Assembly (NCBI GenBank): GCA_037133435.1
Contig: JBAXOD010000003.1
Span: forward strand, 9,502 to 73,501
Source of the DNA: Candidatus Moraniibacteriota bacterium
Lineage (GTDB): Bacteria; Patescibacteriota; Minisyncoccia; Moranbacterales; UBA1568
DNA length: 64,000 nt
Direction of reading: 5' to 3'
Of this stretch, positions 3,719-55,471 are shown piece after piece. Position 1 is the stretch's first letter, and every line of letters starts with the position of its first letter. Under the pieces are notes generated by a model. It saw nothing but the letters and a program-made list of their open reading frames with translations. It searched no databases and was not told where the DNA came from. Position numbers and translations under genes: made by a program.

Positions 3719-3815
3719 ATGGTAGCGTCAGAAGCTTCGGAAGCTGCAAGAGCTTCAAGAGCTTAAATATATATTTCGCGTTACCGAAGTTTTTGAGGCT
3801 TCGGTACGCTTCCTG

Positions 3816-4210
3816 TGGAGTTGATGGGAATCGCACCCATGTCCAAACGGGTTTTTCCAGAACCGCCTACAAGCATAGTCAGCCTTTGGTTCCCCGGAAA
3901 GCGGAAAGGCGGACGGAAATCCTTCCGGGACCTCTTTTCATGCCGGGCCGACTGAGTGAATCGAGGTAAGACTCGTGTCGGTCCGCCTGATGGTATGACA
4001 CCGGATGACCCTTATCAGACATCGGGGGTCCGATGGCTCTCGCGAATTAGGCGAGGGCTGAAGCGAAAGACGGGGAGAACGCGTTAGCGAACGCCATCTT
4101 CACCTTTGATACGATGTTGGCAGTTATCGTGTGCGGGGATTTTTTACGATGATTCCCCATCATCGGCTTGCAGGTTCTGAATGAACGCGCTGTCGAAACT
4201 AAACAACCCC
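3816..4210 (-). ncRNA. ssrA: tmRNA (SsrA)
   Basis: The minus-strand 5' end reads GGGGUUGUUUAGUUUCGACAGCG (compare E. coli GGGGCUGAUUCUGGAUUCGACGGG). The 3' end reads AUGGG-UGCGAUU-CCCAU-CAACUCC-A (T-arm, then acceptor 3' strand pairing with the 5' GGGGUUG, then discriminator A; CCA is not encoded). An internal in-frame reading ...AFANAFSPSFASALA-UAA is a candidate tag. It lies immediately next to smpB. Confidence 0.65.
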
Positions 4211-9657: not shown

Positions 9658-12600
9658 ATGTCATTCAAGAAAATAGATTCGAAATCCGATTTCCCGAAGA
9701 TGGAAGAAGAGATGCTCGCCTATTGGAAAGAGCATGACGTCTTTTCGAAGTCGGTCGGGAAGGAAGCGCCGAAGGGAGATTTCGTGTTCTATGAGGGTCC
9801 GCCGACGGCGAACGGTAAACCGGGGCTGCACCACGTGCTCGCTCGGGCGTTCAAGGACGCCATTCCGCGCTACAAGACGATGAAGGGATACCGGGTGCGA
9901 CGCAAGGCCGGGTGGGATACGCACGGATTGCCTGTCGAGCTGCAGGTGGAGAAGGCGCTCGGACTGCGGAGCAAGCAGGATATCGAGAACATCATCCCTG
10001 GTGATGCGCGTGCGAGCGTCGTCGAGTTCAACAAAAAGTGCAAGGAATCCGTCTGGGAATATCGGGATCTGTGGGAGAAACTCACGGAACGCATGGGGTA
10101 CTGGGTGGACATGGAATATCCGTATGTCACCTATGAGGACAGCTATATCGAGTCGGTCTGGTGGCAATTTTCCAAGATCGCGGAGCAAAAGGACAAGGAC
10201 GGGAACGAGCTCCTCTACCGGGGACACAAGGTCGTGCCGTACTGTTACCGGTGCGGGACGGCGCTTTCCTCGCACGAGGTGGCGCAGGGATATCAGACCG
10301 TGAAGGATAATTCGGCGTACGTGAAATTCAAAGTGAAGCCGGGACAGAGGATCGGCAATTTCGTTTCGGACGAAAAGACCTATCTCGTCGCCTGGACGAC
10401 GACGCCGTGGACGCTCCCCGGGAACGTGGCCTTGGCGGTGAGAGAGGACGCGGAGTACTCCATAGGGAAACAGGATAAACCCGCTCATCTTGAAGGCGAG
10501 GAGTTTTCTTCGATTCAGGATGATACGGTGATTCTTCTCACTGAAACGGCGAGAACGGTGATCGGTGATGAGAAGGAGCCCTTTATCGCAACGGAAAAGA
10601 TCACCGGCAAGGATTTGTCGGGCACGGAGTATGAACCGCTCTTCGCCACTTCGGAAGAGGACAACGGCAAGATGTATCGCGTCGTGTCCGACGAAGTGGA
10701 CGGTCTGCACTTCATTACGACCGATACGGGGACGGGCATCGTTCATATCGCGCCGGCGTTCGGCGAGGACGATGCGAACGTCGCGAAAGTGAGCGGTCTA
10801 CCGACCTTGCATACCGTGGACCTCGAAGGGAAAATGATGAGCGGGATTCCCGGAGCCGGTGTCGCGGTCAAGAAAAAGAACGACAAGAACAGGTATGTGG
10901 TCGATGAACTCGTCATCGCCGATCTGCGCGAACGCGGGATGCTGCTCAAGGAGGAAATCTATGAACACGAGTATCCGTTCTGTTGGCGGTGCGAGACGCC
11001 ATTGATATATTTCGCCAAGCCGTCGTGGTTCATCGCTATGAGTACGCTCCGTGACGAGCTTTCGGAAAATGCCGAGGCGATATCGTGGGTGCCGGAGCAT
11101 ATCAAGGAGGGGCGTTTCGGGGAGTGGCTCAAGAGCGCCAAGGATTGGGCGATTTCGCGTGATCGATATTGGGGGACGCCGATCCCGGTGTGGGAATGTG
11201 CCGAATGCGGACGTCGTACGGTCATCGATTCGAAAGCGAGACTCGAGGAACTTTCCGGGAAGAAACCGGAGGACCTGCACAAGCCGTATATCGACGAGGT
11301 GGAGTGGCCGTGTGAATGCGGGCAGGGGACATGCCGGCGGACGCCCGAAGTGCTCGACGTGTGGTTCGATTCCGGAGCGATGCCTTTGGCACAGTACGGA
11401 TATCCGGCAAGCGCGACCGACGAGGAGAAAGACCTGATCGGCGAAGGAAAATACTTCCCGGCGGATTATATCAGCGAGGCGATCGATCAGACCCGCGGGT
11501 GGTTCTATACGCTCCATGCGATCGCGACTTTGCTTCGCAAAGCCGGTGTCGTCGTGACGGGGAATGCGTATCGGAACGTCGTCTGTCTGGGACATATTCT
11601 CGATTCGAAGGGAAAGAAGATGTCCAAATCGATTGGGAATGTCGTTGATCCGTTCGAGATGTTCGGGAAATACGGGGCGGATGCGCTCCGGTGGTATCTC
11701 TATTCCATCAATCAGCCGGGATTGCCGAAACGCTTCGACGAGAAAGGTATGCGCGACGTGATGAACCGGATTTTCCGGATGTTGTGGAATTCATATTCGT
11801 TCTTCACGACATATGCGTCGATCGACGGGTGGGAACCCCCCCGCAACTCTTCGGGTAGTGAGGTGGGCGGGCCGAAAGAAGATATGAAGGTTTCGGAAAA
11901 TATCCTTGACCGGTGGATCTTGTCCGAGTTGCAGGTGCTGATCCGAGAAGTCGACGAATCGCTTTCATCATACGACCTGTATTTGCCGACCGCCAAGATC
12001 GAATCGTTCATCGACGAACTGTCGAACTGGTATATCCGACGCAACCGCAAGCGGTTCTGGAAAAACGAGAACGACGGCGACAAGGACTCGGCTTATGCGA
12101 CCCTCTACGAGGTGCTTGTCACGCTTTCGAAACTCATGGCTCCGTTCACCCCGTTCATCTCTGAGGAGATCTATCGGAACCTGACTGCGGGCGAGTCGGT
12201 GCATCTTGCCTTGTGGCCGGAAGCGGATGAAGGAAGGATCGACGAGAAATTGGGGACGAATATGGCGGCTGTCAGGGAAATCGTGTCTGTCGGTTTACAG
12301 AAAAGGGCGGATGCCGGAATCAAAGTAAGGCAGCCTCTCGCCTCGATTTCTCTCGGAATAAAATACGAGGAATTATTCGGCACGATTTTCGATGAGAAGA
12401 ATCAGGATTCTTTCGTGAATATCATAGTGGAGGAGTTGAACGTGAAAAAAGTCGAACTGAACATATTGCAGGCACTGCTGAATGCGAACGAAGATATCCT
12501 TTTGGATCTTGATATAACGAACCAGCTTGCGCTTGAGGGAGAGGCGCGGGAAATCATCCGGGCGATCCAGGAAGGGCGCAAGAAAGCCGGATTCGAAGTG

Positions 12601-12801
12601 AATGATCGGATTACGATCGGCATCATCGGCAAAGAGACGGTATTCGATGGTGATGCGGAAGTTTCCGGATTCGGGGAAGAGATCGCTCACGAGACGCTCG
12701 CGACCGAAGTCGTCCGCGGCGATATCGAGGACGCGGACTATCGCGAAATCGCGAAGATCGAAGGGGAGATATTTTCCTTCGCGCTGAAACGGAATGTATG
12801 A
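9658..12801 (+). CDS. ileS: isoleucyl-tRNA synthetase
   Basis: 1047-aa protein with HIGH-region PPTANGKPGLHHVLARAFKD, KMSKS (KKMSKSIGN) and class Ia editing/CP1 architecture. Confidence 0.92.
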   Translation: MSFKKIDSKSDFPKMEEEMLAYWKEHDVFSKSVGKEAPKGDFVFYEGPPTANGKPGLHHVLARAFKDAIPRYKTMKGYRVRRKAGWDTHGLPVELQVEKALGLRSKQDIENIIPGDARASVVEFNKKCKESVWEYRDLWEKLTERMGYWVDMEYPYVTYEDSYIESVWWQFSKIAEQKDKDGNELLYRGHKVVPYCYRCGTALSSHEVAQGYQTVKDNSAYVKFKVKPGQRIGNFVSDEKTYLVAWTTTPWTLPGNVALAVREDAEYSIGKQDKPAHLEGEEFSSIQDDTVILLTETARTVIGDEKEPFIATEKITGKDLSGTEYEPLFATSEEDNGKMYRVVSDEVDGLHFITTDTGTGIVHIAPAFGEDDANVAKVSGLPTLHTVDLEGKMMSGIPGAGVAVKKKNDKNRYVVDELVIADLRERGMLLKEEIYEHEYPFCWRCETPLIYFAKPSWFIAMSTLRDELSENAEAISWVPEHIKEGRFGEWLKSAKDWAISRDRYWGTPIPVWECAECGRRTVIDSKARLEELSGKKPEDLHKPYIDEVEWPCECGQGTCRRTPEVLDVWFDSGAMPLAQYGYPASATDEEKDLIGEGKYFPADYISEAIDQTRGWFYTLHAIATLLRKAGVVVTGNAYRNVVCLGHILDSKGKKMSKSIGNVVDPFEMFGKYGADALRWYLYSINQPGLPKRFDEKGMRDVMNRIFRMLWNSYSFFTTYASIDGWEPPRNSSGSEVGGPKEDMKVSENILDRWILSELQVLIREVDESLSSYDLYLPTAKIESFIDELSNWYIRRNRKRFWKNENDGDKDSAYATLYEVLVTLSKLMAPFTPFISEEIYRNLTAGESVHLALWPEADEGRIDEKLGTNMAAVREIVSVGLQKRADAGIKVRQPLASISLGIKYEELFGTIFDEKNQDSFVNIIVEELNVKKVELNILQALLNANEDILLDLDITNQLALEGEAREIIRAIQEGRKKAGFEVNDRITIGIIGKETVFDGDAEVSGFGEEIAHETLATEVVRGDIEDADYREIAKIEGEIFSFALKRNV
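11836..11873 (+). repeat. palindromic hairpin element inserted in-frame in ileS
   Basis: The DNA ccccccgcaactcttcgggtagtgaggtgggcgggccg encodes PPRNSSGSEVGGP. It is related to the copies at 4209, 22885, 34620 and 48059. Confidence 0.5.
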
Positions 12802-45554: not shown

Positions 45555-45616
45555 TACCCACACGTTTATGGAAACGAAAAACGGCACGGATACGTGTCGT
45601 TTTTCGTTCTTTATAG

Positions 45617-45700
45617 TACCGCGGGAGAGACTCGAACTCTCATGGTATCGCTACCGCGGGATTTTGAGTCCCGTGTGTCTACCAGTTCCACCACCGCGGC
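45617..45700 (-). tRNA. tRNA-Leu (anticodon CAA), type II with long variable arm
   Basis: Folded by hand on the minus strand: acceptor GCCGCGG/CCGCGGU (G1-U72), 3-bp D-stem GUG/CAC, anticodon stem CGGGA/UCCCG with loop CUCAAAA, variable arm GGUAGCGAUACC, T-arm GAGAG-UUCGAGU-CUCUC, discriminator A. CCA is not encoded. Confidence 0.8.
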
Positions 45701-47844: not shown

Positions 47845-47858
47845 ATCCCTTTTCTTAG

Positions 47859-48167
47859 TATCTCTCTCAAATCTCATGTCGAACTGAAATACGGAAATTT
47901 CGATAGGAGCGCCAACCAGAGGTTGGTCACCCTCTGGGTGAAAAACCCTGAAAATCGAGGACGGGTATCCGAAGGAGATGGGGATCCCGCTGTCGTAACC
48001 TGACGATTTTTGAATGATTTGTCCGCCCGCGACGATCGCTTGGCGAGACGGTCGGGGTCCGCCCGCAACGCTTCGCGTAGCGATTCGGGCGGGCAGCCGA
48101 AATTTTCGGATTTCAGCCGGCAAGCGGATTTTTTGCCTTATAGAGGCGTTGAGATTTGAGAGAGATA
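47859..48167. repeat. 309-bp segment bounded by perfect 17-bp inverted repeats (TATCTCTCTCAAATCTC / GAGATTTGAGAGAGATA)
   Basis: Read directly. The interior contains hairpins ccagaggttgg/caccctctgggtg and a family-B hairpin (about 48059-48093). The right arm overlaps the TTG start of the next ORF. Confidence 0.4.
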
Positions 48168-48533
48168 CTTACTTGCATTGAAAACGATATGAAATTGATC
48201 ACAAATGACGAAACAATCAGTCGATCCGAATTGAAAGATATGGCCGGGAAGATGTTTGGCGGACTGGTAAAGGGCGTTGTGGATGTCTCGCGCGGGATCA
48301 TGGCCGTGGATGCCGAACTGCATGCCGACGAGGAAGCGTTCCTTCTGAAATCCGGCTCGTCGCAAGACGATCTCTGGGGTATCAACCTTTATCCGGACGA
48401 GACGGGTGAGGATTTCATCGAATTCGATTCCATGATAAACGTCCGACCCCGACAGGGAAATAAGAGTCGTGGCGTCGAGAATGCCGATCTTCGGAGTGCA
48501 ATAATCGGAATCGTAAACGATCTAGTCGTATGA
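48156..48533 (+). CDS. hypothetical protein (TTG start)
   Basis: 125-aa ORF. Its stop overlaps the next gene's start by 4 bp. Confidence 0.4.
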   Translation: MREILTCIENDMKLITNDETISRSELKDMAGKMFGGLVKGVVDVSRGIMAVDAELHADEEAFLLKSGSSQDDLWGINLYPDETGEDFIEFDSMINVRPRQGNKSRGVENADLRSAIIGIVNDLVV

Positions 48534-48992: not shown

Positions 48993-51671
48993 ATGTCTGA
49001 AAAGGATTTTTTCGCTATCGGAGAGGAACGACGGAAGCTTCGTCACGAGGTGCTTGATGCGACCGGGTTTTCGGCACACGAAGTGTCTTCGCGTGGCGGA
49101 GTGGTCGCGAAACCGGAATTCATGAAGGAGGTCAATGAAGGCAACCTTTCAAATGTCGCGGAGAAGGTCGTGCTCGATGCGGACTCGGCGCCTTCGGTAT
49201 CCGAGGGACTTGACCGTATCGAGGCGTTGAACGAGAAAGCAAAGGAGTTCAAACTTTTTCCGGACCGACCGGAGAAAACCGAAGCGGTGTCGCCTGAACA
49301 AACGGAGCGGTCACTTTCCGATGTCCGCCGACGATATGCAAAAGCGCGCGAGGCCAAGGCGCTTGATGGTGGAGGAGAGAAGCCGACGAGGATGGATACA
49401 GAAGAGACGCTCATCGAGCCAAACGAAAAGGAACAGCGAAAGGCAAACCTTTTCCAGGAACTTTATTCGATGGAACGATTTTCCACACTCCAGAAGCAGG
49501 GTCGGTATCGTTTGTTGCGCCGACCGGAAGATGAGCGACTTGCCGAACGGCTTCGTATAGGCGCGGACCTCACGCGGACCGTCATAAAACGGCGCGAAAC
49601 ACTTGAGGCGGATGTGGATACGAGATACGTGGTCCGTGAATATGAGCTGTCGAAATATCGGCAACAGCTGACAAACGAACGCTTCGTGGTCACGCCGAGT
49701 CGGCGTGGCTATATCGATCGGATCGGATCACTCATCGAACAAGGAAAGCCGATTCTTGAGGAAGGGCATACCGGTGGTGGCAAGACCGAGCTCGCGAAGT
49801 ATGCCGCGCGCGAATGTACCGGTCGTGAAGCTGAGGTCGTGTATTGCAACCCACAGACCCGCCAGAGCGATATTTTCGGCAGGCAATCACTTCGTGAAAG
49901 TGACCGCGGGGCAACCGTGACGGATATCGATTTCGGTCCGCTCACGAGGGCTCTTACCGAAGGGAAAATCTGTATTTTCGATGAATTTAACGAGCTTGAC
50001 CCGAGATTCCGGCAGGTGCTCAAAGCCCTCTACAACGCGAAACCTGGGGACATGGTGAACGTGCCGGGCAATGGCAAAGTTCTCGTCGCACAAGGGTTCG
50101 GTTGCATCATGACCGCGAACCTCAAGAGTGAGAAATATGCCGAGAAGGGTGCGCTTGAACCGCAAGAAACACGAGTGTTTCTTGATTCGACCATTCGGAC
50201 GGACTATCCGCCTGCTTCGGAATTGTACGATGTCGCACTGTCCTCACTTGCCGATACGCAGGGGAACGTGCTTCTGACGCGCGAAGAGGCGGACACGACC
50301 CTGAAGCATTTCACCGATGCCATCCACGATATACAGGAGGCATATGCGAACACACTCCCGGCACACTATGGAAATGACACCGATTTTTCGGCGTTCGGGA
50401 AGGGGTCGAAACGGGGGAAACGACCGCAACTCGAGAAATACGTGCTCGATACCGGTATGGCGGTGCGACTCTTACAGGGATTTCGAATCGCACGGATGGA
50501 ACACGGGACATCGCTTGTCGATTTCCTCGACGAAGCACTCATCCGGACCTTCGAGGGGGACAAGATCGGTGAAGAGGACAAGCGCCTCGCGATCTATATG
50601 TTGGCCCAAAAAGGATTCCTCTCAGGATACAAGCAAGAGGACTTTCGGACACGCATCGGGGTCGATTACTCCGACAAGAAGCTCGATCCGACGACATTAT
50701 CAAAATCGAAACGAGCCGAGCTTTCTCCGGACGAAAGCTTTGCGACCCTGTCCGCCGAAGAGGTGGCGAGAATCGATCCGTATGAACGGATGAGAATCGA
50801 CGCGAATGAGGAGCTCGGATTGCCGTCCACGTCACCGGATAAGCCGGGCTCTCCTGAATACCACAGTTTCAGGGAGGCACGGGATATCTTCAAGGAGCGT
50901 TTCTATGGGCCAGAGGAAACAGAGCAGGTCTTCGGGTTCCGACCGGAAGCACCACCGATCCCGTATACAAAAGCAGACATGCTCCGGCACGAACAGCTCG
51001 GTCATATCCTGATGTACAATCCGGATATATTGCCAGACGGGACGCCGTTCGATATTCAGACCATGGCCAGTCGTGCGCTTTCCGGCGGACGCAATGTCTT
51101 GGAACGCGATGCGAGCGGAATTCCGACGAAGTATCTCCTCTACAAGGAGCAGTTTGACGAAAATGGTAAGATCTTGGACGGTGCTTGGTTTTCTGGCGAT
51201 CAAGAAGTGAAAACCGGCACCCCACAGTCTGGGTGGCAGTTTGTCTCGCCCGAGGCCTTGCCTGATACGGAAAACAAAAACTTCGTCGCGCAGACGGATA
51301 TCCTGATCGAGAATGCGAGAGAAAATTTCTTTGGCGGAGGAGTACCGGATGCATTTCAAAAAGCCGTCGATGAATGGCATTCAAAGAAGGTTATGTTCAA
51401 AGATGATGCCAACAAGCTTGCGTCGCTTCCAATCATGAACTTTGTGCGTGAACGAGTACAAAATACGATATTTCGGTTTCTCCTCGTACATGGAACAGGA
51501 AGAGGGACGCTGTTCGCGGACGGCAATTATGTCTGGTCATATGCACTCTCGTCGGGCGGCAGCCTCGTTTCCTTCGGCTTTGCGGTCGCGGTTGGCGCGG
51601 ACGTGTACGGGTACGCGCCGGTTGACTCGTACTCGGATTTGCGTGCCGTGGCCTCCCGCAGTGGATGTTGA
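48993..51671 (+). CDS. DGR target protein: MoxR-like AAA+ ATPase (AAA_5-type) with a C-terminal hypervariable (VR-encoded) domain
   Basis: Walker A LEEGHTGGGKTELAKYA, Walker B ICIFDEFNELD, sensor GFGCIMTANLK. The last ~40 codons are the VR of the DGR; they differ from the downstream TR only at adenine positions. Confidence 0.8.
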   Translation: MSEKDFFAIGEERRKLRHEVLDATGFSAHEVSSRGGVVAKPEFMKEVNEGNLSNVAEKVVLDADSAPSVSEGLDRIEALNEKAKEFKLFPDRPEKTEAVSPEQTERSLSDVRRRYAKAREAKALDGGGEKPTRMDTEETLIEPNEKEQRKANLFQELYSMERFSTLQKQGRYRLLRRPEDERLAERLRIGADLTRTVIKRRETLEADVDTRYVVREYELSKYRQQLTNERFVVTPSRRGYIDRIGSLIEQGKPILEEGHTGGGKTELAKYAARECTGREAEVVYCNPQTRQSDIFGRQSLRESDRGATVTDIDFGPLTRALTEGKICIFDEFNELDPRFRQVLKALYNAKPGDMVNVPGNGKVLVAQGFGCIMTANLKSEKYAEKGALEPQETRVFLDSTIRTDYPPASELYDVALSSLADTQGNVLLTREEADTTLKHFTDAIHDIQEAYANTLPAHYGNDTDFSAFGKGSKRGKRPQLEKYVLDTGMAVRLLQGFRIARMEHGTSLVDFLDEALIRTFEGDKIGEEDKRLAIYMLAQKGFLSGYKQEDFRTRIGVDYSDKKLDPTTLSKSKRAELSPDESFATLSAEEVARIDPYERMRIDANEELGLPSTSPDKPGSPEYHSFREARDIFKERFYGPEETEQVFGFRPEAPPIPYTKADMLRHEQLGHILMYNPDILPDGTPFDIQTMASRALSGGRNVLERDASGIPTKYLLYKEQFDENGKILDGAWFSGDQEVKTGTPQSGWQFVSPEALPDTENKNFVAQTDILIENARENFFGGGVPDAFQKAVDEWHSKKVMFKDDANKLASLPIMNFVRERVQNTIFRFLLVHGTGRGTLFADGNYVWSYALSSGGSLVSFGFAVAVGADVYGYAPVDSYSDLRAVASRSGC
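51543..51658 (+). repeat. DGR variable repeat (VR) at the 3' end of the target gene
   Basis: 116-bp gapless alignment with the TR at about 51925-52040. About 15 mismatches, every one at a TR adenine. The 3' end ...gatttgcgtgccgtggcctcccg is identical (IMH-like). Encodes ...ALSSGGSLVSFGFAVAVGADVYGYAPVDSYSDLRAVASR. Confidence 0.8.
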
Positions 51672-51924
51672 GCTTTGATCTTTGAACCTTTGAGTCGGCT
51701 TCCGCCCCGGAAAGGGGTGGAAGCGGTTTTGAATATGATATACTGATTGTGGGAATGAGACACGGCGTACGCGTCGTGACCCCAGCAGTTTCTGCTTGTC
51801 CGGTGTCGGCGCGAGTATCGACAGAGAGGGGAGTAGGAGCGCGCGCATATTTTCTCCCCACGTCCGGTGCCGGTACGAGACCGTATCCGCTTCGGAACGC
51901 ATTCGGATGGCACCGGGCACCATG

Positions 51925-52040
51925 GCACTCTCGTCGGACGGCAACCTCGTTTACTTCGGCAATGCGGACGCGAATGGCGCGAACGTGAACGGGAACACGC
52001 CGGATGACTCGAACTCGAATTTGCGTGCCGTGGCCTCCCG
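51925..52040 (+). repeat. DGR template repeat (TR)
   Basis: gcactctcgtcggacggcaacctcgtttacttcggcaatgcggacgcgaatggcgcgaacgtgaacgggaacacgccggatgactcgaactcgaatttgcgtgccgtggcctcccg. Rich in AAC/AAT codons (8 Asn in frame). Non-coding position between the target gene and avd. Confidence 0.8.
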
Positions 52041-52052
52041 AAGGAACGGCGA

Positions 52053-52442
52053 TCACCGCGGACGACCCGCGGTTTTCGTTTCCTCCGATTCGGTCGTCTT
52101 TTTGAGCCAGCCACCGATCATCTTGCCGATCTCGACGCCGTATCCGGATAATTCGGCGTACCCGGCATCGTTGAGACATCGGGTATCGTGCGCGAGCCGG
52201 AGATGAAAGAAAAATATCCGCAGTGTCACGTCCATCTTGTTGAGGATCATGGCCCTCGATGTGCCACGTTTCGATTGAGCCAGGTAGCCGAGCTCGACAA
52301 TCTCGAGGAGGGACTGTTCGAGACGCATACCGAGCGAGTAGCGTGACGCTTTCGGAAATGAAAGAATACGGGTATGGAGACACCGATAACAGTCGGCAAG
52401 CCGAAGGAAAATGACCGGTTCCGAGAAGTTGCTGTCGTTCAT
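52053..52442 (-). CDS. avd: DGR accessory variability determinant (Avd), four-helix-bundle family
   Basis: 129-aa minus-strand ORF: ...FPKASRYSLGMRLEQSLLEIVELGYLAQSK...LNKMDVTLRIFFFHLRLAHDTRCLNDAGYAELSGYGVEIGKMIGGWLKK. This aligns well with the bAvd/PF05635 pattern (...LRLA...EIGKMLGGW...). Divergent from the RT. Confidence 0.7.
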   Translation of the reverse strand: MNDSNFSEPVIFLRLADCYRCLHTRILSFPKASRYSLGMRLEQSLLEIVELGYLAQSKRGTSRAMILNKMDVTLRIFFFHLRLAHDTRCLNDAGYAELSGYGVEIGKMIGGWLKKTTESEETKTAGRPR

Positions 52443-52448
52443 GATGAT

Positions 52449-53474
52449 ATGTTCGAACGGATTATCTCACTTGAGAACCTGGTTGGCGCGTGGCGTGAAT
52501 TCCGAATCGGGAAACGTTCCAAAAAAGACGTCATCGAGTTCGGTGATCGGGTCGAAGAATATCTCGTGGCGCTCGCTCTCGACCTGAAAGCCGGGAAGTA
52601 TCGTCACGGACAGTATACCCGATTCATCGTCCACGATCCAAAACGGAGGGAAATATCCAAGGCGCCGGTCCGTGACCGGGTGCTCCACCATGCCCTTTGC
52701 CGAGTGATCGTTCCCGTGTTCGATCGCGGATTCATTTTCGATTCGTATGCGAATCGGACCGGGAAAGGGACACTTTCCGCGAATGACCGGCTCGATGCCT
52801 TCGTCCGGAAATGCTCGCGAAACGGCTCGCGCACGGCGTTCGTATTGAAGGCTGATATCCGGAAATACTTCGATTCGGTCGATCACGAAACGTTGCTTCG
52901 GATTTTGGGTCGACGGATCCGATGTGAACGAACGCTCGGATTGCTTCACTTTGTCGTTTCGAGCTTTGAAACGTCTCCCGGTAAAGGTATTCCACTCGGA
53001 AACTTGACGTCGCAACTGTTCTCCAACGCGTATCTCGATCCATTTGACCAGTTCGTAAAGCGAGAGCTCGGTGTGAAATACTATATCCGGTATGCCGATG
53101 ATTTCGTGGTCCTTTCGGACGATGTGGGAGCGCTTGACCGCATGCGGTCACGTATGGATGCGTTCCTGACCCTGAATCTCGGCCTCACGCTACATCCCGA
53201 GAAGACACGGATTGTTCGATTCGGGAGCGGGGTGGATTTTCTCGGGAAGGTGCATTTCCGATTTCACCGGGTCCTTCGCGTGAAAACGAAGAGACGAAGT
53301 ATCCGGAGAATCGCATCTCGGAATGAGTCATCGTATATCGGACTCCTGAGACATTCGCGGTCGCATGGATTGGTACGGATACTCCGTGATATACTGGAAC
53401 AAAGGAATATTTTGGAAGAAGTATGCGTGAACCCGTCTACAAAGCCGAGCGGAGCGTGGACCAGTCGGGTATGA
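52449..53474 (+). CDS. DGR reverse transcriptase
   Basis: RT motifs including YADDFVV. The DGR-diagnostic LGNLTSQ (I/LGxxxSQ in motif 4, replacing the group II intron QG). N-terminus MFERIISLENLVGAW resembles the Bordetella bRT start. The ORF track offers 52374 as an upstream start, but that would overlap avd. Confidence 0.85.
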   Translation: MFERIISLENLVGAWREFRIGKRSKKDVIEFGDRVEEYLVALALDLKAGKYRHGQYTRFIVHDPKRREISKAPVRDRVLHHALCRVIVPVFDRGFIFDSYANRTGKGTLSANDRLDAFVRKCSRNGSRTAFVLKADIRKYFDSVDHETLLRILGRRIRCERTLGLLHFVVSSFETSPGKGIPLGNLTSQLFSNAYLDPFDQFVKRELGVKYYIRYADDFVVLSDDVGALDRMRSRMDAFLTLNLGLTLHPEKTRIVRFGSGVDFLGKVHFRFHRVLRVKTKRRSIRRIASRNESSYIGLLRHSRSHGLVRILRDILEQRNILEEVCVNPSTKPSGAWTSRV

Positions 53475-55471
53475 CACGTCCCGATTCGGGCGACAACGGC
53501 GACCCGGTGGCCGATTTTATCGAACGAAACAAACGTGCGCTTACGCAGTATGCCGGCGATGCGTCGCTTTCCGTGCGTTCTGCCGAGGGGGTGATGACAC
53601 CAGACGGCCCGCTTGAGACATGCGCGATCGATCTTGAGAAGGGAGAATATTATTTGCATCGACGGTTCCGGGACGGGGCATACGGTGGATCCGAGGAGAA
53701 GATGCTCTTCGGGGCGTTTCATGAGATAGAACACTTCCGCGAGCTTCGGGGTCTTTTGCGGGAGCACACCGGGTCGGACGTCTGGCGGAAATTGCGAAAG
53801 AAAAAAGAAGAACGGACGCGGTATCATATATTGGATAATTCTTTTGGTGATGTGAAGATGAATAATGCGGTCGTGAATCGCGCGCCCGTATTGTCCGGGA
53901 CGCGGGAAGAACTGTATCGGAGCGACCTATTTCCCGAGCGGGACTTGACGGGCCTTCCGAAACATTTGCAGTTCGTGCACGTGCTGAATTGCGAGATGCA
54001 GATCCCGGGCGAGACCTGGACGGTCGATCCGGACGTCCGTGAGGAATTCGAGAAACTGAAAACGATACGCGGTCAGAAATCCGGACGCCCGATACTCGAG
54101 TATGCGACCCATCCGGATATCTCGATGCGTGATCGACTGATCGTGCAAGACGCGCTCATCGAACCGGTGTACGAAAAATTCTTCGTAGAGGACGTTCGGA
54201 AGAAACAAGAACAGCAATCGAACAAACCTTCGGAATCGGGGCAAAAAAATGGTGAACCGGACCAAAGCGGGGATGCATCGAAACCGGGAAGCAGTGATGG
54301 AAAGCCGGATACGAATCAGGAGCCTCCATCGGAATCGTCTTCGAAGCCAGGGAATGAAATGCCTGGGCAGAGCGAAGGGGCTTCGGGTAAGTCGACCGAT
54401 GAAAACAGGACTGACCCCGAGAATCCCGAGGCATATTTCCGTAAGGAATATGATGACTATTTTAAACAGCATCCGGAGGCGATACCAAAAGACGTGTTGA
54501 AGCGTGTTGTGGAAGAGGAAATCACACGACAAAACGAAAGCATGCGAGATCCTGGAAAAAACGCGTTCGATGCGTATGCCCGGGCGCAGGGCGTCGAGCC
54601 GAACGATCTTCGGAACTATATGCGTTTCCGTGACTCGCTCGAAAAAATAACCGATTCGGAAACAGGCGAATCGGTTGTAGATGCGATACGAGAACTGTTC
54701 GAGCGGATTATTTCGAAACGTTTGAAGTGGATGCCAGAGCCGAAATACCCACTTCCGGAAGGGGACGAGCTTGAATATCCTGCAGAAGCAGTTGTCAGGA
54801 CACGCGCTGGCGAGACAGAACCAGACGTATGGAGTGAGACGGAATTTCGTGAAAAAGAGGGGGATTTCACGGGTGACTTCGATGTGACTCTTGTTGGTGA
54901 TACCTCGATTTCGATGGCGGAAAATGGCGGGAAAAAACGGGACGAACAGAAGAAAGGCATCATATTGATCATGGAGGCACTTTCTGAATTCTCGGAGCGA
55001 TTAGAAGAGGTGCGCTCGCGGCTCCGACATGATCTGCACGTCCGTTCGGAAGGATGGGTATTCGGGAATTCGGCGGAATGTGTCAAACCGCTGTCCGAGG
55101 ATTTGTCGGAGAAAGACCGGGTCGCGATGTACAAGCGACTTGGGAACACGAGCGGATCGACGAAGGACTTTCTCGTACTCAAAAAGTTGTCTGATGCCCT
55201 GACCGAAGATGAAGTGAATCGCATACGTAATGGAAGTCTTAAAAAAATTGTTATCGTCATGACCGATGGAGATAGTGATAACGTAGCGCTTGTACAAGAA
55301 GAGCTCAAAAAACTTCGTGATAATGGCGTCATCGTTATCGGCGTAGGGATAACTGAAGAAGGGAAATCGGCACTGACGACCTATGCGCCGGAGGCGAGGC
55401 TTTGTGAAAAAGCGACGGATGTAGCCATGGTTCTCGGTGAACTGCTCAAGGAACATCTCCGGAGCCTTTAA
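53471..55471 (+). CDS. vWA domain protein (MIDAS motif) with N-terminal HExxH-containing region
   Basis: C-terminal vWA domain: DVTLVGDTSISM ... IVIVMTDGDSDN (DxSxS...T...D MIDAS). N-terminal FHEIEHF. Central low-complexity acidic/Ser-Gly-rich linker. The start ATG overlaps the RT stop (ATGA). The ORF track start 53423 is in the same frame. Confidence 0.7.
   Translation: MTRPDSGDNGDPVADFIERNKRALTQYAGDASLSVRSAEGVMTPDGPLETCAIDLEKGEYYLHRRFRDGAYGGSEEKMLFGAFHEIEHFRELRGLLREHTGSDVWRKLRKKKEERTRYHILDNSFGDVKMNNAVVNRAPVLSGTREELYRSDLFPERDLTGLPKHLQFVHVLNCEMQIPGETWTVDPDVREEFEKLKTIRGQKSGRPILEYATHPDISMRDRLIVQDALIEPVYEKFFVEDVRKKQEQQSNKPSESGQKNGEPDQSGDASKPGSSDGKPDTNQEPPSESSSKPGNEMPGQSEGASGKSTDENRTDPENPEAYFRKEYDDYFKQHPEAIPKDVLKRVVEEEITRQNESMRDPGKNAFDAYARAQGVEPNDLRNYMRFRDSLEKITDSETGESVVDAIRELFERIISKRLKWMPEPKYPLPEGDELEYPAEAVVRTRAGETEPDVWSETEFREKEGDFTGDFDVTLVGDTSISMAENGGKKRDEQKKGIILIMEALSEFSERLEEVRSRLRHDLHVRSEGWVFGNSAECVKPLSEDLSEKDRVAMYKRLGNTSGSTKDFLVLKKLSDALTEDEVNRIRNGSLKKIVIVMTDGDSDNVALVQEELKKLRDNGVIVIGVGITEEGKSALTTYAPEARLCEKATDVAMVLGELLKEHLRSL

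What the first reader, a model, noticed from the sequence alone, without database searches (positions are those of the whole stretch)
48993..55471. Complete diversity-generating retroelement whose target is a MoxR-like AAA+ ATPase, sitting between that ATPase and its vWA partner gene
All four DGR hallmarks are visible in the sequence. (1) A 116-bp TR/VR pair with adenine-only mismatches. (2) An RT carrying YADD plus the DGR-specific LGNLTSQ motif. (3) An Avd four-helix-bundle gene. (4) An identical IMH-like 3' end on VR and TR. The unusual part is the target. The VR forms the C-terminus of an 892-aa protein whose core is an AAA_5/MoxR-type ATPase (Walker A GHTGGGKT, Walker B ICIFDEFN). The RT is translationally coupled (ATGA overlap) to a 682-aa vWA/MIDAS protein. 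MoxR AAA+ and vWA proteins are a known functional pair. The DGR targets I know of are mostly surface ligand-binding C-type-lectin-fold or Ig-like proteins. Mutagenic retrohoming wired into the substrate- or partner-recognition end of an AAA+/vWA chaperone-like module would be an undescribed use of DGR diversification, possibly a programmable recognition module.
Basis: partly seen in the sequence, partly recalled or inferred. Interest (0 to 1): 0.92.

Follow-up and report, generated by a model that had tools for sequence, protein, structure and literature searches.

The report
CPR-type DGR diversifying an AAA+ ATPase
This is a real and apparently active diversity-generating retroelement in a Candidatus Moraniibacteriota (CPR) genome that rewrites the lectin-fold tail of a MoxR-like ATPase encoded next to a vWA partner, but this kind of target and gene layout has already been reported for CPR bacteria, so it is a good example and not a new kind of system.

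Summary
VR (51543-51661) and TR (51925-52043) are a 119-nt repeat with 16 mismatches, all at TR adenines. A DGR-type RT, an Avd (on the minus strand) and a shared IMH-like end followed by a hairpin are present. The VR closes an intact 892-aa AAA_5 protein, and a 682-aa vWA gene follows the RT.

The novelty claim fails. Wu et al. 2018 describe TR-(avd)-RT as the layout of 90% of CPR DGRs, with midasin-like AAA-ATPase targets. Doré et al. 2024, citing Paul et al. 2017, call CLec-fused-to-AAA the commonest CPR target. MoxR–vWA systems coupled to DGRs are described by Kaur et al. 2020.

Modest extras that I did not find in the searchable literature:
- a conserved vWA partner with an invariant HExxH motif;
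- a covariation-supported structured leader upstream of the TR.

Verdict: new member of a known kind; interest about 0.33.

The parts
48993..51671 (+). DGR target gene, 892 aa. It has an N-terminal helical region, a MoxR/midasin-like AAA+ core, a helical linker and a C-terminal CLec-fold domain ending in the VR. No signal peptide or TM segment was detected.
   Evidence: ORF and translation. AAA_5 at 5e-13. Profile hits to midasin, NorQ and CbbQ. AF2 model pLDDT 80.8 with Foldseek best hits NorQ/CbbQ, TMt about 0.70. 21 homologues with the same architecture. Hydropathy scan.
49764..50129 (+). AAA_5 ATPase core (residues 258-379) with Walker A GHTGGGKT and Walker B CIFDEFN. G258, T260, G261, G263, K264, D330, E331, T374 and N376 are invariant in the family alignment.
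50856..51668 (+). C-terminal C-type-lectin/FGE-sulfatase-like domain (residues 622-892). The VR encodes its last beta strands and loops.
51543..51661 (+). Variable repeat (VR): 14 recodable codons between residues 855 and 882, about 1e13 amino-acid combinations, none able to become a stop codon.
   Evidence: Population variation is confined to these codons.
51637..51658 (+). IMH-like GC-rich segment, identical in VR and TR. The two copies diverge just downstream (IMH versus IMH*).
51698..51724 (+). GC-rich hairpin (11-bp stem, GGAAA loop) followed by a T run, 27 nt after the target stop codon. It is in the position of the DGR target-site hairpin/cruciform and/or the terminator of the target gene.
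   Evidence: Comparable hairpins lie after the target stop in L003 and L006; L005's is weak. L013 keeps the stem through a compensatory change, TTCC/GGAA to TTTC/GAAA.
51735..51744 (+). Extended -10-like box ATGATATACT. This is the putative promoter of the TR RNA (inferred).
   Evidence: Sequence. Conserved in L011, L013 and L015, with similar boxes in L003 and L006. The generic promoter scan did not report it.
51752..51924 (+). Structured non-coding leader of the TR RNA with four helices: P1 51761-51767/51772-51778; P2 51797-51807/51909-51919; P3 51809-51813/51840-51844; P4 51863-51876/51883-51896.
   Evidence: About 100% conserved among loci whose coding DNA is 71-85% identical. RNAalifold. 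93.5% of cells paired versus 29-52% in slid controls; 24 of 35 pairs with compensatory changes; 0 of 500 shuffles reach the observed values. Coordinates. No Rfam family at the gathering threshold.
51925..52043 (+). Template repeat (TR): 25 adenines, mostly in AAY codons. It ends in CCGAAG, which is invariant in nine related TRs.
52055..52073 (+). Hairpin (7 bp) plus T run immediately after the TR and abutting the avd stop codon. It is the likely 3' end or attenuator of the TR RNA (inferred).
   Evidence: An equivalent hairpin plus T run follows the TR in L003, L005 and L006. The loop varies and the stem is kept in L011 and L013.
52053..52442 (-). avd accessory gene, 129 aa, in reversed orientation between TR and RT.
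   Evidence: PF22296 bAvd 3e-13. NCBIfam DivGenRetAVD 8.6e-16, 58.1 bits, below that model's curated cut-off of 80. Reversed in all 34 related DGR loci where it was detected. This matches architecture B3 of Wu et al. 2018.
52449..53474 (+). DGR reverse transcriptase, 341 aa from Met 52449 (the ORF opens at 52374 and would overlap avd). It carries IPLGNLTSQ and YADD.
   Evidence: RVT_1. Best PDB sequence hit is 8ub7_A at 3.8e-48, against 2e-20 for the best group II intron RT. 34% identity to BPP-1 Brt, E 3e-56. 176 phage records with matches, including Bordetella and Vibrio VP585.
53423..55471 (+). vWA partner protein, 682 aa. The N-terminal ~260 aa carry a conserved HExxH (E101 invariant, H100 and H104 in at least 90% of 27 sequences; nt 53720-53734). 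An acidic/Ser-rich low-complexity linker follows. The C-terminal vWA domain (residues 487-658, nt 54881-55396) has an intact MIDAS (D493-x-S495-x-S497, T580, D615).
   Evidence: 64 homologues across Parcubacteria. It lies next to the AAA gene in 40 of the 41 related loci with enough flanking sequence.

Best explanation
This is a chromosomal, CPR-type diversity-generating retroelement with the layout target-VR / TR / reversed avd / RT. It sits inside a conserved two-gene AAA+–vWA module of a Candidatus Moraniibacteriota genome.

**Shown**
- All DGR parts are present and intact.
- The TR-to-VR differences are adenine-specific.
- The VR encodes the ligand-binding end of a C-type-lectin/FGE-fold domain that is fused to a MoxR/midasin-like AAA+ ATPase.
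- Close relatives differ almost only at the adenine-templated VR codons, so mutagenic retrohoming is operating in natural populations.
- The vWA(MIDAS) gene is linked to the AAA gene in nearly every related locus, including loci that have lost the DGR.

**Inferred mechanism**
- A short TR RNA (promoter, structured ~175-nt leader, TR, terminator hairpin) is copied by RT–Avd with misincorporation opposite adenines.
- The cDNA replaces the VR, guided by the IMH and the downstream hairpin. This recodes 14 codons, about 1e13 variants.

**Inferred function**
- Both proteins lack signal peptides and TM segments. The product is therefore probably a cytoplasmic AAA+ ring that displays hypervariable lectin-fold binding modules.
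- The ring would work with the vWA/MIDAS partner as MoxR ATPases do with theirs (NorQ–NorD, CbbQ–CbbO).
- It would act as an NTPase-coupled variable sensor or adaptor, most plausibly directed against invading or host-derived proteins. The HExxH-bearing N-terminal domain of the vWA protein is a possible effector.
For: **DGR identity**
- TR/VR: 16 of 16 mismatches at TR adenines, p 7.6e-14.
- RT: 34% identical to Brt with the LGNLTSQ motif.
- Avd HMM hits; the NCBIfam hit is below that model's curated cut-off.
- IMH-like segment and hairpin.

**Same system elsewhere**
- 39 related loci carry A-biased TR/VR pairs.
- avd is reversed in 34 of 34 loci where it was detected.

**Activity in nature**
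- Window versus L014: about 100% identical over 5 kb except the VR. 21 of the 72 differences fall in 119 nt (p 1.4e-17), and 20 of those 21 are at adenine positions of the TR.
- In the 90%-identity cluster of P0002, 17 of 21 variable columns lie in residues 856-883, with at least 5 VR haplotypes.

**Fold**

**AAA+**
- AAA_5; midasin, NorQ and CbbQ by sequence profile and by Foldseek.
- Walker A and B and sensor residues are invariant.

**vWA linkage**
- 31 loci have AAA+DGR+vWA. Nine have AAA+vWA without an intact RT. Only 1 locus with enough flank lacks vWA.
- MIDAS residues are invariant in 27 sequences.

**Cytoplasmic location**
- No TM segment or signal peptide by a simple hydropathy scan.

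**TR RNA unit**
-.

**Literature frame**
- PMC5758913, PMC10907252, PMC7159879.
Against: - No experiment or read-level data for this locus. Activity is inferred from comparisons between assemblies.
- Physical interaction of the AAA+ and vWA proteins is inferred from synteny and from analogy with NorQD and CbbQO only.
- No PADLOC defence family matches the AAA or vWA proteins.
- The TR RNA ends are inferred from consensus-like motifs. The generic promoter scan did not call the -10 box.
- The Avd NCBIfam score (58.1 bits) is below that model's curated cut-off (80).
Confidence: 0.8

Rival explanations
1. The variable protein is a surface adhesin that an episymbiotic CPR cell uses to attach to hosts. 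This is the usual reading of CPR DGR targets. On this view the AAA+ and vWA domains are incidental.
For: Most characterised DGR targets are surface or tail-fibre ligand binders, and CPR DGRs have been interpreted this way (PMC10221324; PMC8144416). vWA domains are common in extracellular adhesion proteins, and the PDB hits to the vWA profile are integrins, collagen and TRAP.
Against: Neither protein has a signal peptide or a TM segment. The CLec domain is covalently fused to an ATPase with intact Walker motifs, which needs cytoplasmic ATP. The closest structural relatives of the ATPase are cytoplasmic MoxR chaperones that work with vWA partners.
Confidence: 0.08
2. The AAA+–CLec protein works alone. 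The vWA gene is only a syntenic neighbour that is co-transcribed with the RT, with no functional coupling.
For: No interaction data exist. In 7 loci the vWA gene lies upstream of the AAA gene and not after the RT. One locus with enough flank (L072) shows the AAA gene without a vWA gene.
Against: Linkage holds in 40 of 41 informative loci across many Patescibacteria classes. It holds in two gene orders and in different genomic neighbourhoods, and it survives loss of the DGR (L001, L027, L030, L035, L041, L042). MoxR AAA+ proteins are an established functional pair with vWA proteins; NorQ–NorD complexes are in the PDB.
Confidence: 0.12
3. The DGR is a decaying relic. The TR/VR differences are old and the element no longer diversifies the target.
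For: Related loci do show decay: RT fragments in L001, L009, L027 and L070, and no TR in L001. No read-level data are available for this window.
Against: All ORFs are intact. RT and Avd are 100% identical to L014 while the VR differs at 21 positions, 20 of them adenine-templated, inside an otherwise ~100%-identical 5-kb block. A sister population carries at least 5 VR haplotypes.
Confidence: 0.04
4. The module is a housekeeping MoxR-type maturation chaperone, like NorQD for metal insertion, CbbQO for Rubisco or midasin for ribosome assembly. On this view the adaptor end happens to be diversified, and it is not a conflict or sensing system.
For: The best sequence and structural relatives are midasin, NorQ and CbbQ. 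Several related cassettes sit inside or beside ribosomal-protein operons (L001 between the EF-G and EF-Tu genes; L002 after the SecY–Adk–Map genes). Wu et al. note ribosomal genes within some CPR DGRs.
Against: Hypervariation of about 1e13 binding-site variants makes little sense for a fixed housekeeping client. The genomic neighbourhood is not conserved among loci. The DGR is dispensable in some lineages.
Confidence: 0.1

Closest known systems
CPR/Patescibacteria DGRs of architecture B3, TR-(avd)-RT, with AAA-ATPase (midasin-like, 'UVR4') targets. Sources: Wu et al. 2018 NAR (PMC5758913); Paul et al. 2017 Nat Microbiol as cited by Doré et al. 2024.
   Same: - Same phylum-level host.
- Same gene order, with avd reversed between TR and RT.
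- Target with an AAA ATPase matching midasin/AAA_5.
- VR at the extreme C-terminus.
- AAY-rich TR.
   Different: Nothing essential differs. Wu et al. left the fold of this VR class open. Here it is predicted with high confidence to be CLec/FGE. The vWA neighbour is not mentioned in the text of Wu et al. that I could read. I could not read Paul et al. 2017.
DGR-coupled MoxR–vWA 'VMAP ternary' conflict systems of cyanobacteria, gammaproteobacteria and Thiohalocapsa. Sources: Kaur et al. 2020 eLife (PMC7159879); Doré et al. 2024 PNAS (PMC10907252).
   Same: A MoxR-like AAA+ ATPase, a vWA protein and a DGR-diversified FGE/CLec domain are encoded together. The proposed role is an NTPase-coupled hypervariable sensor or effector.
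   Different: - In those systems the CLec/FGS domain is fused to the vWA component or to a separate protein, and MoxR is a small stand-alone ATPase. Here the CLec domain is fused to the ATPase itself.
- No VMAP component or conserved third gene is evident here.
- Those RTs belong to a different DGR clade (clade 5, versus the CPR clade 2 of Roux et al. 2021).
- The hosts here are ultrasmall CPR bacteria, not multicellular bacteria.
Bordetella phage BPP-1 DGR (mtd–avd–TR–brt)
   Same: - RT is 34% identical.
- Avd family accessory protein.
- Adenine-specific TR-to-VR substitution.
- GC-rich IMH followed by a hairpin.
   Different: - avd is upstream and co-directional in BPP-1, and reversed between TR and RT here.
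- In BPP-1 the essential non-coding RNA element, the spacer, lies 3' of the TR (my own knowledge of the BPP-1 literature, not checked here). Here the conserved structured element lies 5' of the TR, and the 3' flank is a short hairpin abutting avd.
- The BPP-1 target is a phage tail-fibre protein. Here it is a cytoplasmic ATPase.
MoxR AAA+/vWA chaperone pairs NorQ–NorD and CbbQ–CbbO
   Same: Best structural matches of the ATPase core (Foldseek E about 5e-10, TMt about 0.70). A partner gene with an intact MIDAS vWA domain lies adjacent.
   Different: - Those ATPases are about 260-aa single-domain proteins with fixed clients.
- This one carries a ~250-aa N-terminal helical extension and a ~270-aa hypervariable CLec domain.
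- Its vWA partner has an uncharacterised HExxH N-terminal region.

Membership tests
Diversity-generating retroelement (DGR) | TR/VR repeat pair whose differences are confined to adenines of the TR | tested here: met
   16 of 16 mismatches at TR adenines; 15 of 16 at codon positions 1 or 2; p 7.6e-14.
Diversity-generating retroelement (DGR) | RT of the DGR clade with the [ILV]GxxxSQ motif and catalytic YxDD | tested here: met
   LGNLTSQ and YADD. Brt, via its PDB entry 8ub7_A, scores 167.7 bits against 76.4 bits for the best group II intron RT. 34% identity to BPP-1 Brt. No formal phylogeny was built.
Diversity-generating retroelement (DGR) | Accessory variability determinant (Avd) | tested here: met
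   PF22296 at 50.6 bits, above its cut-off of 40. NCBIfam DivGenRetAVD at 58.1 bits, below its cut-off of 80. Pairwise similarity to bAvd is negligible.
Diversity-generating retroelement (DGR) | IMH at the 3' end of the VR, IMH* in the TR, and a GC-rich inverted repeat downstream of the VR | tested here: met
   A 22-nt identical GC-rich segment, then divergence. An 11-bp hairpin at 51698-51724, conserved with a compensatory change. Its function was not tested.
Diversity-generating retroelement (DGR) | VR located in a C-type-lectin (or Ig) fold ligand-binding domain | tested here: met
Diversity-generating retroelement (DGR) | Ongoing mutagenic retrohoming | tested here: inconclusive
   Indirect but strong. 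VR-restricted, adenine-position differences occur between near-identical assemblies, and there are at least 5 VR haplotypes in a sister cluster. There are no reads and no experiment for this locus.
CPR DGR architecture B3 (Wu et al. 2018) | Core order TR-(avd)-RT with avd on the opposite strand, in a CPR host | tested here: met
   TR 51925-52043 (+), avd 52053-52442 (-), RT 52449-53474 (+). The host is named Candidatus Moraniibacteriota. The definition is from PMC5758913.
CPR DGR target class 'UVR4'/midasin-like AAA (Wu et al. 2018) | Target matches the midasin AAA-ATPase domain | tested here: met
   Family profile versus PDB: midasin 4e-17. AAA_5.
CPR DGR target class 'UVR4'/midasin-like AAA (Wu et al. 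2018) | VR alignable to the UVR4 consensus | not testable with these tools
   The UVR4 alignment is in supplementary data that are not held.
MoxR-family AAA+ ATPase | AAA_5/AAA_3-type core with intact Walker A and B, structurally like NorQ, CbbQ or RavA | tested here: met
MoxR-family AAA+ ATPase | Genomic pairing with a vWA/MIDAS protein | tested here: met
   40 of 41 informative related loci. MIDAS D-x-S-x-S, T and D are conserved.
MoxR-family AAA+ ATPase | Hexameric ATPase that binds its vWA partner | not testable with these tools
VMAP ternary conflict system (Kaur et al. 2020) | Third component, VMAP (vWA-MoxR-associated protein), usually with a peptidase, cyclase or EAD domain | tested here: inconclusive
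   No conserved third gene appears in the synteny of 68 loci apart from extra small CLec targets. No VMAP profile was available to search with. I therefore do not file the locus under this family.
VMAP ternary conflict system (Kaur et al. 2020) | Diversified FGS/CLec domain fused to the vWA component | tested here: not met
   The CLec domain is fused to the AAA+ protein. The vWA protein has no VR.

The most novel reading that the evidence does not exclude
The AAA+–CLec protein and its vWA partner, which has a conserved HExxH motif, could form a single cytoplasmic machine that is widespread in Patescibacteria. Its substrate-recognition end would be reprogrammed by a DGR. It would act as an intracellular, ATP-driven 'antigen sensor' or programmable unfoldase/protease adaptor in ultrasmall symbionts, most of which lack CRISPR. 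This coupling to a vWA/HExxH partner has not been explicitly described. In addition, B3-type DGRs may depend on a previously unrecognised structured RNA domain placed 5' of the TR, where the BPP-1 paradigm has a 3' spacer.
Probability: 0.3. Interest if true: 0.6.

Novelty: new member of a known kind. Interest (0 to 1): 0.33.

Why it matters
As an example, the locus is clean and complete. It has natural VR variants in sister populations, so it could serve as a model for the little-studied CPR class of DGRs.

It ties together two strands of literature:
- the CPR targets described as 'AAA ATPase fused to CLec';
- the MoxR–vWA–DGR conflict systems of multicellular bacteria.

It does this by showing that the CPR ATPase also has a conserved vWA/MIDAS partner. 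That makes the hypothesis of an NTPase-coupled hypervariable intracellular sensor concretely testable: which ligands are bound, and whether the HExxH domain is an effector.

The structured TR leader offers a handle on how DGRs with a reversed avd organise their template RNA.

None of this overturns current understanding.

Tried and rejected
**Sequence searches that found nothing for the new domains**
- Pfam on the target's N- and C-terminal parts and on the vWA N-terminal 486 aa: no family, even at E up to 5.
- Pfam on 27 vWA-family members: only vWA families.
- phmmer of Avd against the PDB: no hit.
- BLASTP of Avd against bAvd: negligible. Only the HMMs recognise it.
- PADLOC: no defence family for the AAA, vWA, Avd or DUF5674 proteins.
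- Rfam at the gathering threshold: only tmRNA and tRNA, nothing at the TR.

**Literature that could not be reached**
- Paul et al. 2017 could not be read by DOI, PMC id or PMID.
- The supplements of Wu et al. 2018 are not held.
- As a result, UVR4 membership, and any earlier mention of the vWA neighbour, could not be checked directly.
- Full-text searches for retroelement + von Willebrand + Parcubacteria, and for 8UB7, returned nothing.

**RNA model**
- Covariance model R1 of the TR leader found only the training loci, plus L014 and a weak hit in L006. This leader is specific to a Moraniibacteria-like subclade.
- More distant Parcubacteria DGRs have a different leader (A8). I did not model it.

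**Explanations considered and rejected**
- Prophage or foreign island: the GC content matches the flanks and the neighbours are housekeeping genes.
- Frameshift artefact joining the AAA and CLec parts: at least 15 homologues have the same full-length architecture.

**Not done**

Full report
**1. The observation**

The repeat finder returns one long direct repeat in 46-58 kb: 51543-51661 and 51925-52043, 119 nt at 87% identity.
- In ungapped register (offset 382) there are 16 mismatches. In every one the TR copy has A and the VR copy has G, T or C.
- These 16 use 16 of the 25 TR adenines. Fifteen of them hit codon position 1 or 2 of the 48993-51671 ORF.
- The hypergeometric probability that 16 random mismatches all fall on adenines is 7.6e-14.
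- The last 22 nt before the copies diverge (51637-51658, GC-rich) are identical, as expected for IMH/IMH*.

- An 892-aa ORF with AAA_5 (5e-13), Walker A GHTGGGKT and Walker B CIFDEFN.
- An RT with RVT_1, LGNLTSQ and YADD.
- A 129-aa bAvd-family ORF (PF22296 3e-13; NCBIfam DivGenRetAVD 8.6e-16, 58.1 bits, below that model's curated cut-off of 80).
- A 682-aa ORF with a C-terminal VWA domain.

- avd is on the minus strand (52053-52442), between TR and RT.
- The ATGA overlap (53471-53474) involves internal Met17 of the vWA ORF. The conserved N-terminus of that protein points to a start at 53423.

**2. Source organism and family**

- The target is 100% identical to an NCBI protein named 'AAA family ATPase [Candidatus Moraniibacteriota bacterium]' on a 77-kb contig. 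The window carries a tmRNA gene and housekeeping genes.
- The cassette has the same GC content as its flanks. It is therefore a chromosomal locus of a CPR/Patescibacteria bacterium.
- Twenty-one homologues of the target were found, all with AAA_5 hits. Eighteen of these sequences align along their whole length, although a few short or distant ones lack the C-terminal part. The exception to the alignment is a hypervariable block in the last ~40 residues.

**3. The DGR is genuine and has been active recently**

- The RT's best solved relative is chain 8ub7_A (3.8e-48). The best group II intron RT scores 2e-20.
- The RT is 34% identical to BPP-1 Brt over 312 aa. The aligned 8ub7_A residues match the Brt residues, so that entry is Brt.
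- Related loci have their own TR/VR pairs with 15/15, 18/18 and 19/19 mismatches at TR adenines. A blastn screen found A-biased pairs in 39 of 73 loci.
- A second Moraniibacteriota assembly (L014) is about 100% identical to the window from 49020 to 54100. Of the 72 differences in that stretch, 21 fall in the 119-nt VR (p 1.4e-17), and 20 of those 21 are at adenine positions of the TR.
- In the 90%-identity cluster of the sister protein P0002, 11 full-length members show 21 variable columns. Seventeen of these lie in residues 856-883, forming at least five VR haplotypes.
- The TR allows 14 codons to vary, about 1e13 protein variants, and none of them can mutate to a stop codon.

**4. What the target is**

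- AlphaFold2 on the family alignment gives a full-length model with mean pLDDT 80.8.
- The ATPase core's best Foldseek matches are NorQ (including NorQ–NorD vWA complexes) and CbbQ, at E about 5e-10 and TMt about 0.70.
- The family profile hits midasin (4e-17), NorQ and CbbQ by sequence.
- Residues 622-892 modelled alone give pLDDT 93.2 and pTM 0.92.
- The VR therefore sits in a CLec/FGE fold, as in canonical DGR targets, although no sequence profile detects this.
- The C-terminal domain family is large: 1986 representatives at 50% clustering. The domain is always C-terminal. Most members are ~300-360-aa stand-alone proteins, with a subset of 800-1000-aa fusions.
- Neither the target nor the vWA protein has a signal peptide or TM segment by a simple hydropathy scan.

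**5. The vWA partner and the cassette**

I surveyed 68 non-redundant loci that encode an AAA relative. They came from metagenomes and from GTDB species representatives. In the genome scan nearly all records are labelled as Patescibacteria, including Moraniibacteriota, Paceibacterota and the Taylor-, Zambryski-, Kaiser-, Nomura-, Yanofsky-, Vogel- and Ryanbacteria groups. A few automatically labelled TPA assemblies carry other names. Results:
- 31 loci show AAA + RT + vWA together. The vWA gene follows the RT in 24 and precedes the AAA gene in 7.
- 9 loci have AAA + vWA without an intact RT. Four of these carry RT fragments, and L001 has no TR at all.
- 7 loci have AAA + DGR on contigs too short to show a vWA gene.
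- Only one locus with enough flank lacks a vWA gene.
- avd is reversed in all 34 loci where it was detected.
- Flanking genes differ from locus to locus.

The AAA–vWA pair is therefore the stable unit, and the DGR is a frequent but dispensable insert.

The vWA protein has these features:
- MIDAS residues are conserved: D493, S495, T580 and D615 are invariant and S497 is present in at least 90% of 27 sequences.
- An HExxH motif is conserved in an N-terminal region that no profile recognises: E101 is invariant, and H100 and H104 are present in at least 90% of the 27 sequences.

Many relatives carry one or two additional small CLec targets, often just after the vWA gene. The window has none.

**6. 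How it probably works**

Shown: the parts and their order, the adenine-specific information flow from TR to VR, the CLec fold, the MoxR-like core, the vWA linkage, and natural VR variation.

Inferred TR RNA unit:
- An extended -10-like box (51735-51744) follows the hairpin and T run that closes the target gene (51698-51724).
- A ~175-nt leader follows. It is almost invariant among loci whose coding DNA is only 71-85% identical.
- The leader folds into four helices. 93.5% of cells are paired, against 29-52% in slid controls. 24 of 35 pairs show compensatory changes, and 0 of 500 shuffles reach the observed values.
- The TR ends in an invariant CCGAAG and is followed at once by a hairpin plus T run (52055-52073) that abuts the avd stop codon. 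Equivalent hairpins follow the TR in L003, L005 and L006.
- I therefore propose a short, self-contained TR RNA that RT–Avd copies with adenine mutagenesis. The cDNA would home to the VR through the IMH and the downstream hairpin.
- RT and vWA are probably co-transcribed. The avd and RT start codons are only 6 nt apart and divergent.

Inferred function: a cytoplasmic AAA+ ring displaying hypervariable lectin-fold modules. It would act with a MIDAS partner in the manner of MoxR systems, as a variable sensor or adaptor. This agrees with the suggestion of Doré et al. 2024 that in CPR the ATPase may transduce signals detected by the C-terminal domain.

**7. Comparison with what is known**

- Wu et al. 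2018 define architecture B3, TR-(avd)-RT. They state that it accounts for 90% of their CPR set. They also report CPR targets ('UVR4') that match the midasin AAA-ATPase domain, and they leave the fold of that VR class open.
- Doré et al. 2024, citing Paul et al. 2017, say the most common CPR target architecture is CLec fused to an AAA ATPase.
- Kaur et al. 2020 and Doré et al. 2024 describe DGR-diversified FGS/CLec domains inside MoxR–vWA 'VMAP ternary' systems. There the variable domain is on the vWA component or a separate protein, and a VMAP protein is present. Here the CLec domain is on the ATPase and no conserved third component is seen, so I do not file the locus as a VMAP ternary system.
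- Roux et al. 2021 note that CPR clade-2 targets usually lack recognisable domains.
- I found no accessible text mentioning the vWA neighbour of the CPR AAA targets. However, I could not read Paul et al. 2017.

**8. Verdict**

Its claimed novelty does not hold: it is a new member of the known CPR class of DGRs with AAA-ATPase/CLec targets.

The increments from this analysis are:
- a confident CLec fold assignment for this VR class;
- quantified, near-obligate linkage to a vWA(MIDAS) protein with a conserved HExxH motif;
- population-level evidence of activity;
- a covariation-supported structured leader 5' of the TR in the Moraniibacteria-like subclade (model R1 finds it only there).

Interest is 0.33. 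The most novel reading still open is a DGR-programmed cytoplasmic AAA+/vWA machine, not yet described as such, together with a new DGR RNA element. I give that a probability of about 0.3.

Noticed in passing
window 51752-51924 (helices at 51761-51778, 51797-51807/51909-51919, 51809-51813/51840-51844, 51863-51896); also L011, L013, L014, L015, L016, L018, L003, L005: A ~175-nt non-coding leader immediately 5' of the TR is almost invariant among strains and folds into four helices with strong covariation. 24 of 35 pairs show compensatory changes, and 93.5% of cells are paired versus 29-52% in slid controls. No Rfam family matches. Model R1 finds it only in the Moraniibacteria-like subclade. More distant Parcubacteria DGRs (A8) carry a different conserved hairpin (GGCAT-TAT-GATGCC, with covarying variants).
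   Followed up: yes
window 49020-54100 versus L014 (JBAXFX010000009.1) and L015: Mosaic identity. The cassette from the target gene to mid-vWA is about 100% identical to L014, while DNA on both sides is mostly only 60-90% identical. L015 shows a different mosaic. This suggests recent recombination or transfer of the cassette among related Moraniibacteriota.
   Followed up: partly
window 53720-53734 (vWA protein residues 100-104): A conserved HExxH (HEIEH) sits in the uncharacterised N-terminal region of the vWA partner: E101 is invariant and H100 and H104 are present in at least 90% of 27 sequences. D143 and N147 are also invariant. It may be a zincin-like effector domain. No Pfam, NCBIfam or PDB sequence hit was found, and the region was not modelled.
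   Followed up: partly
window 48156-48533 (+); L001 11077-11427; L014 5252-5617: A DUF5674 gene lies about 460 nt upstream of the target. In L001, which has lost the DGR, a DUF5674 gene sits between the AAA and vWA genes next to an RT fragment. This may be a loose association or a coincidence.
   Followed up: partly
window 47857-47876 and 48150-48169: A perfect 20-nt inverted repeat (AGTATCTCTCTCAAATCTCA / TGAGATTTGAGAGAGATACT) brackets a 273-nt segment. That segment spans the 5' end of a 422-aa minus-strand ORF with no Pfam hit and reaches the start of the DUF5674 gene. The region is poorly conserved in L014. It could be an invertible segment or a MITE-like element.
   Followed up: no
L008 4207-5208 and 9069-10079; L009 5397-6248 and 9073-9930; L045, L052, L053, L061 around 12,400-12,750: Many related cassettes have one or two extra small (~280-340 aa) stand-alone CLec targets served by the same TR. 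These often lie just downstream of the vWA gene. The window has only the AAA-fused target.
   Followed up: partly
L001 (between the EF-G and EF-Tu genes), L002/L003 (after the SecY–Adk–Map–RuvX genes): In some genomes the AAA–vWA cassette is inserted inside or right next to ribosomal-protein or translation operons. This recalls the remark of Wu et al. about ribosomal genes within CPR DGRs, and the role of midasin in ribosome assembly.
   Followed up: no
L010 3530-8917 (5.5-Mb, non-CPR genome): A distant relative of the pair occurs outside CPR, without a DGR. It consists of a 641-aa AAA_5 protein, a 514-aa protein built of 37-aa (111-nt) tandem repeats, and a 638-aa protein of the vWA-partner family (29% identical to the window's vWA protein).
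   Followed up: no
window 52442/52449: The avd (-) and RT (+) start codons are only 6 nt apart and divergent, so each gene's promoter must lie inside the other's coding sequence or further upstream. A promoter-like site on the + strand (52123-52152) lies antisense within avd.
   Followed up: no
window 3813-4210 (-) and 45616-45700 (-): A tmRNA gene (tag peptide ANIVSKVKMAFANAFSPSFASALA) and a tRNA-Leu(CAA) gene. Both are ordinary chromosomal markers.
   Followed up: no
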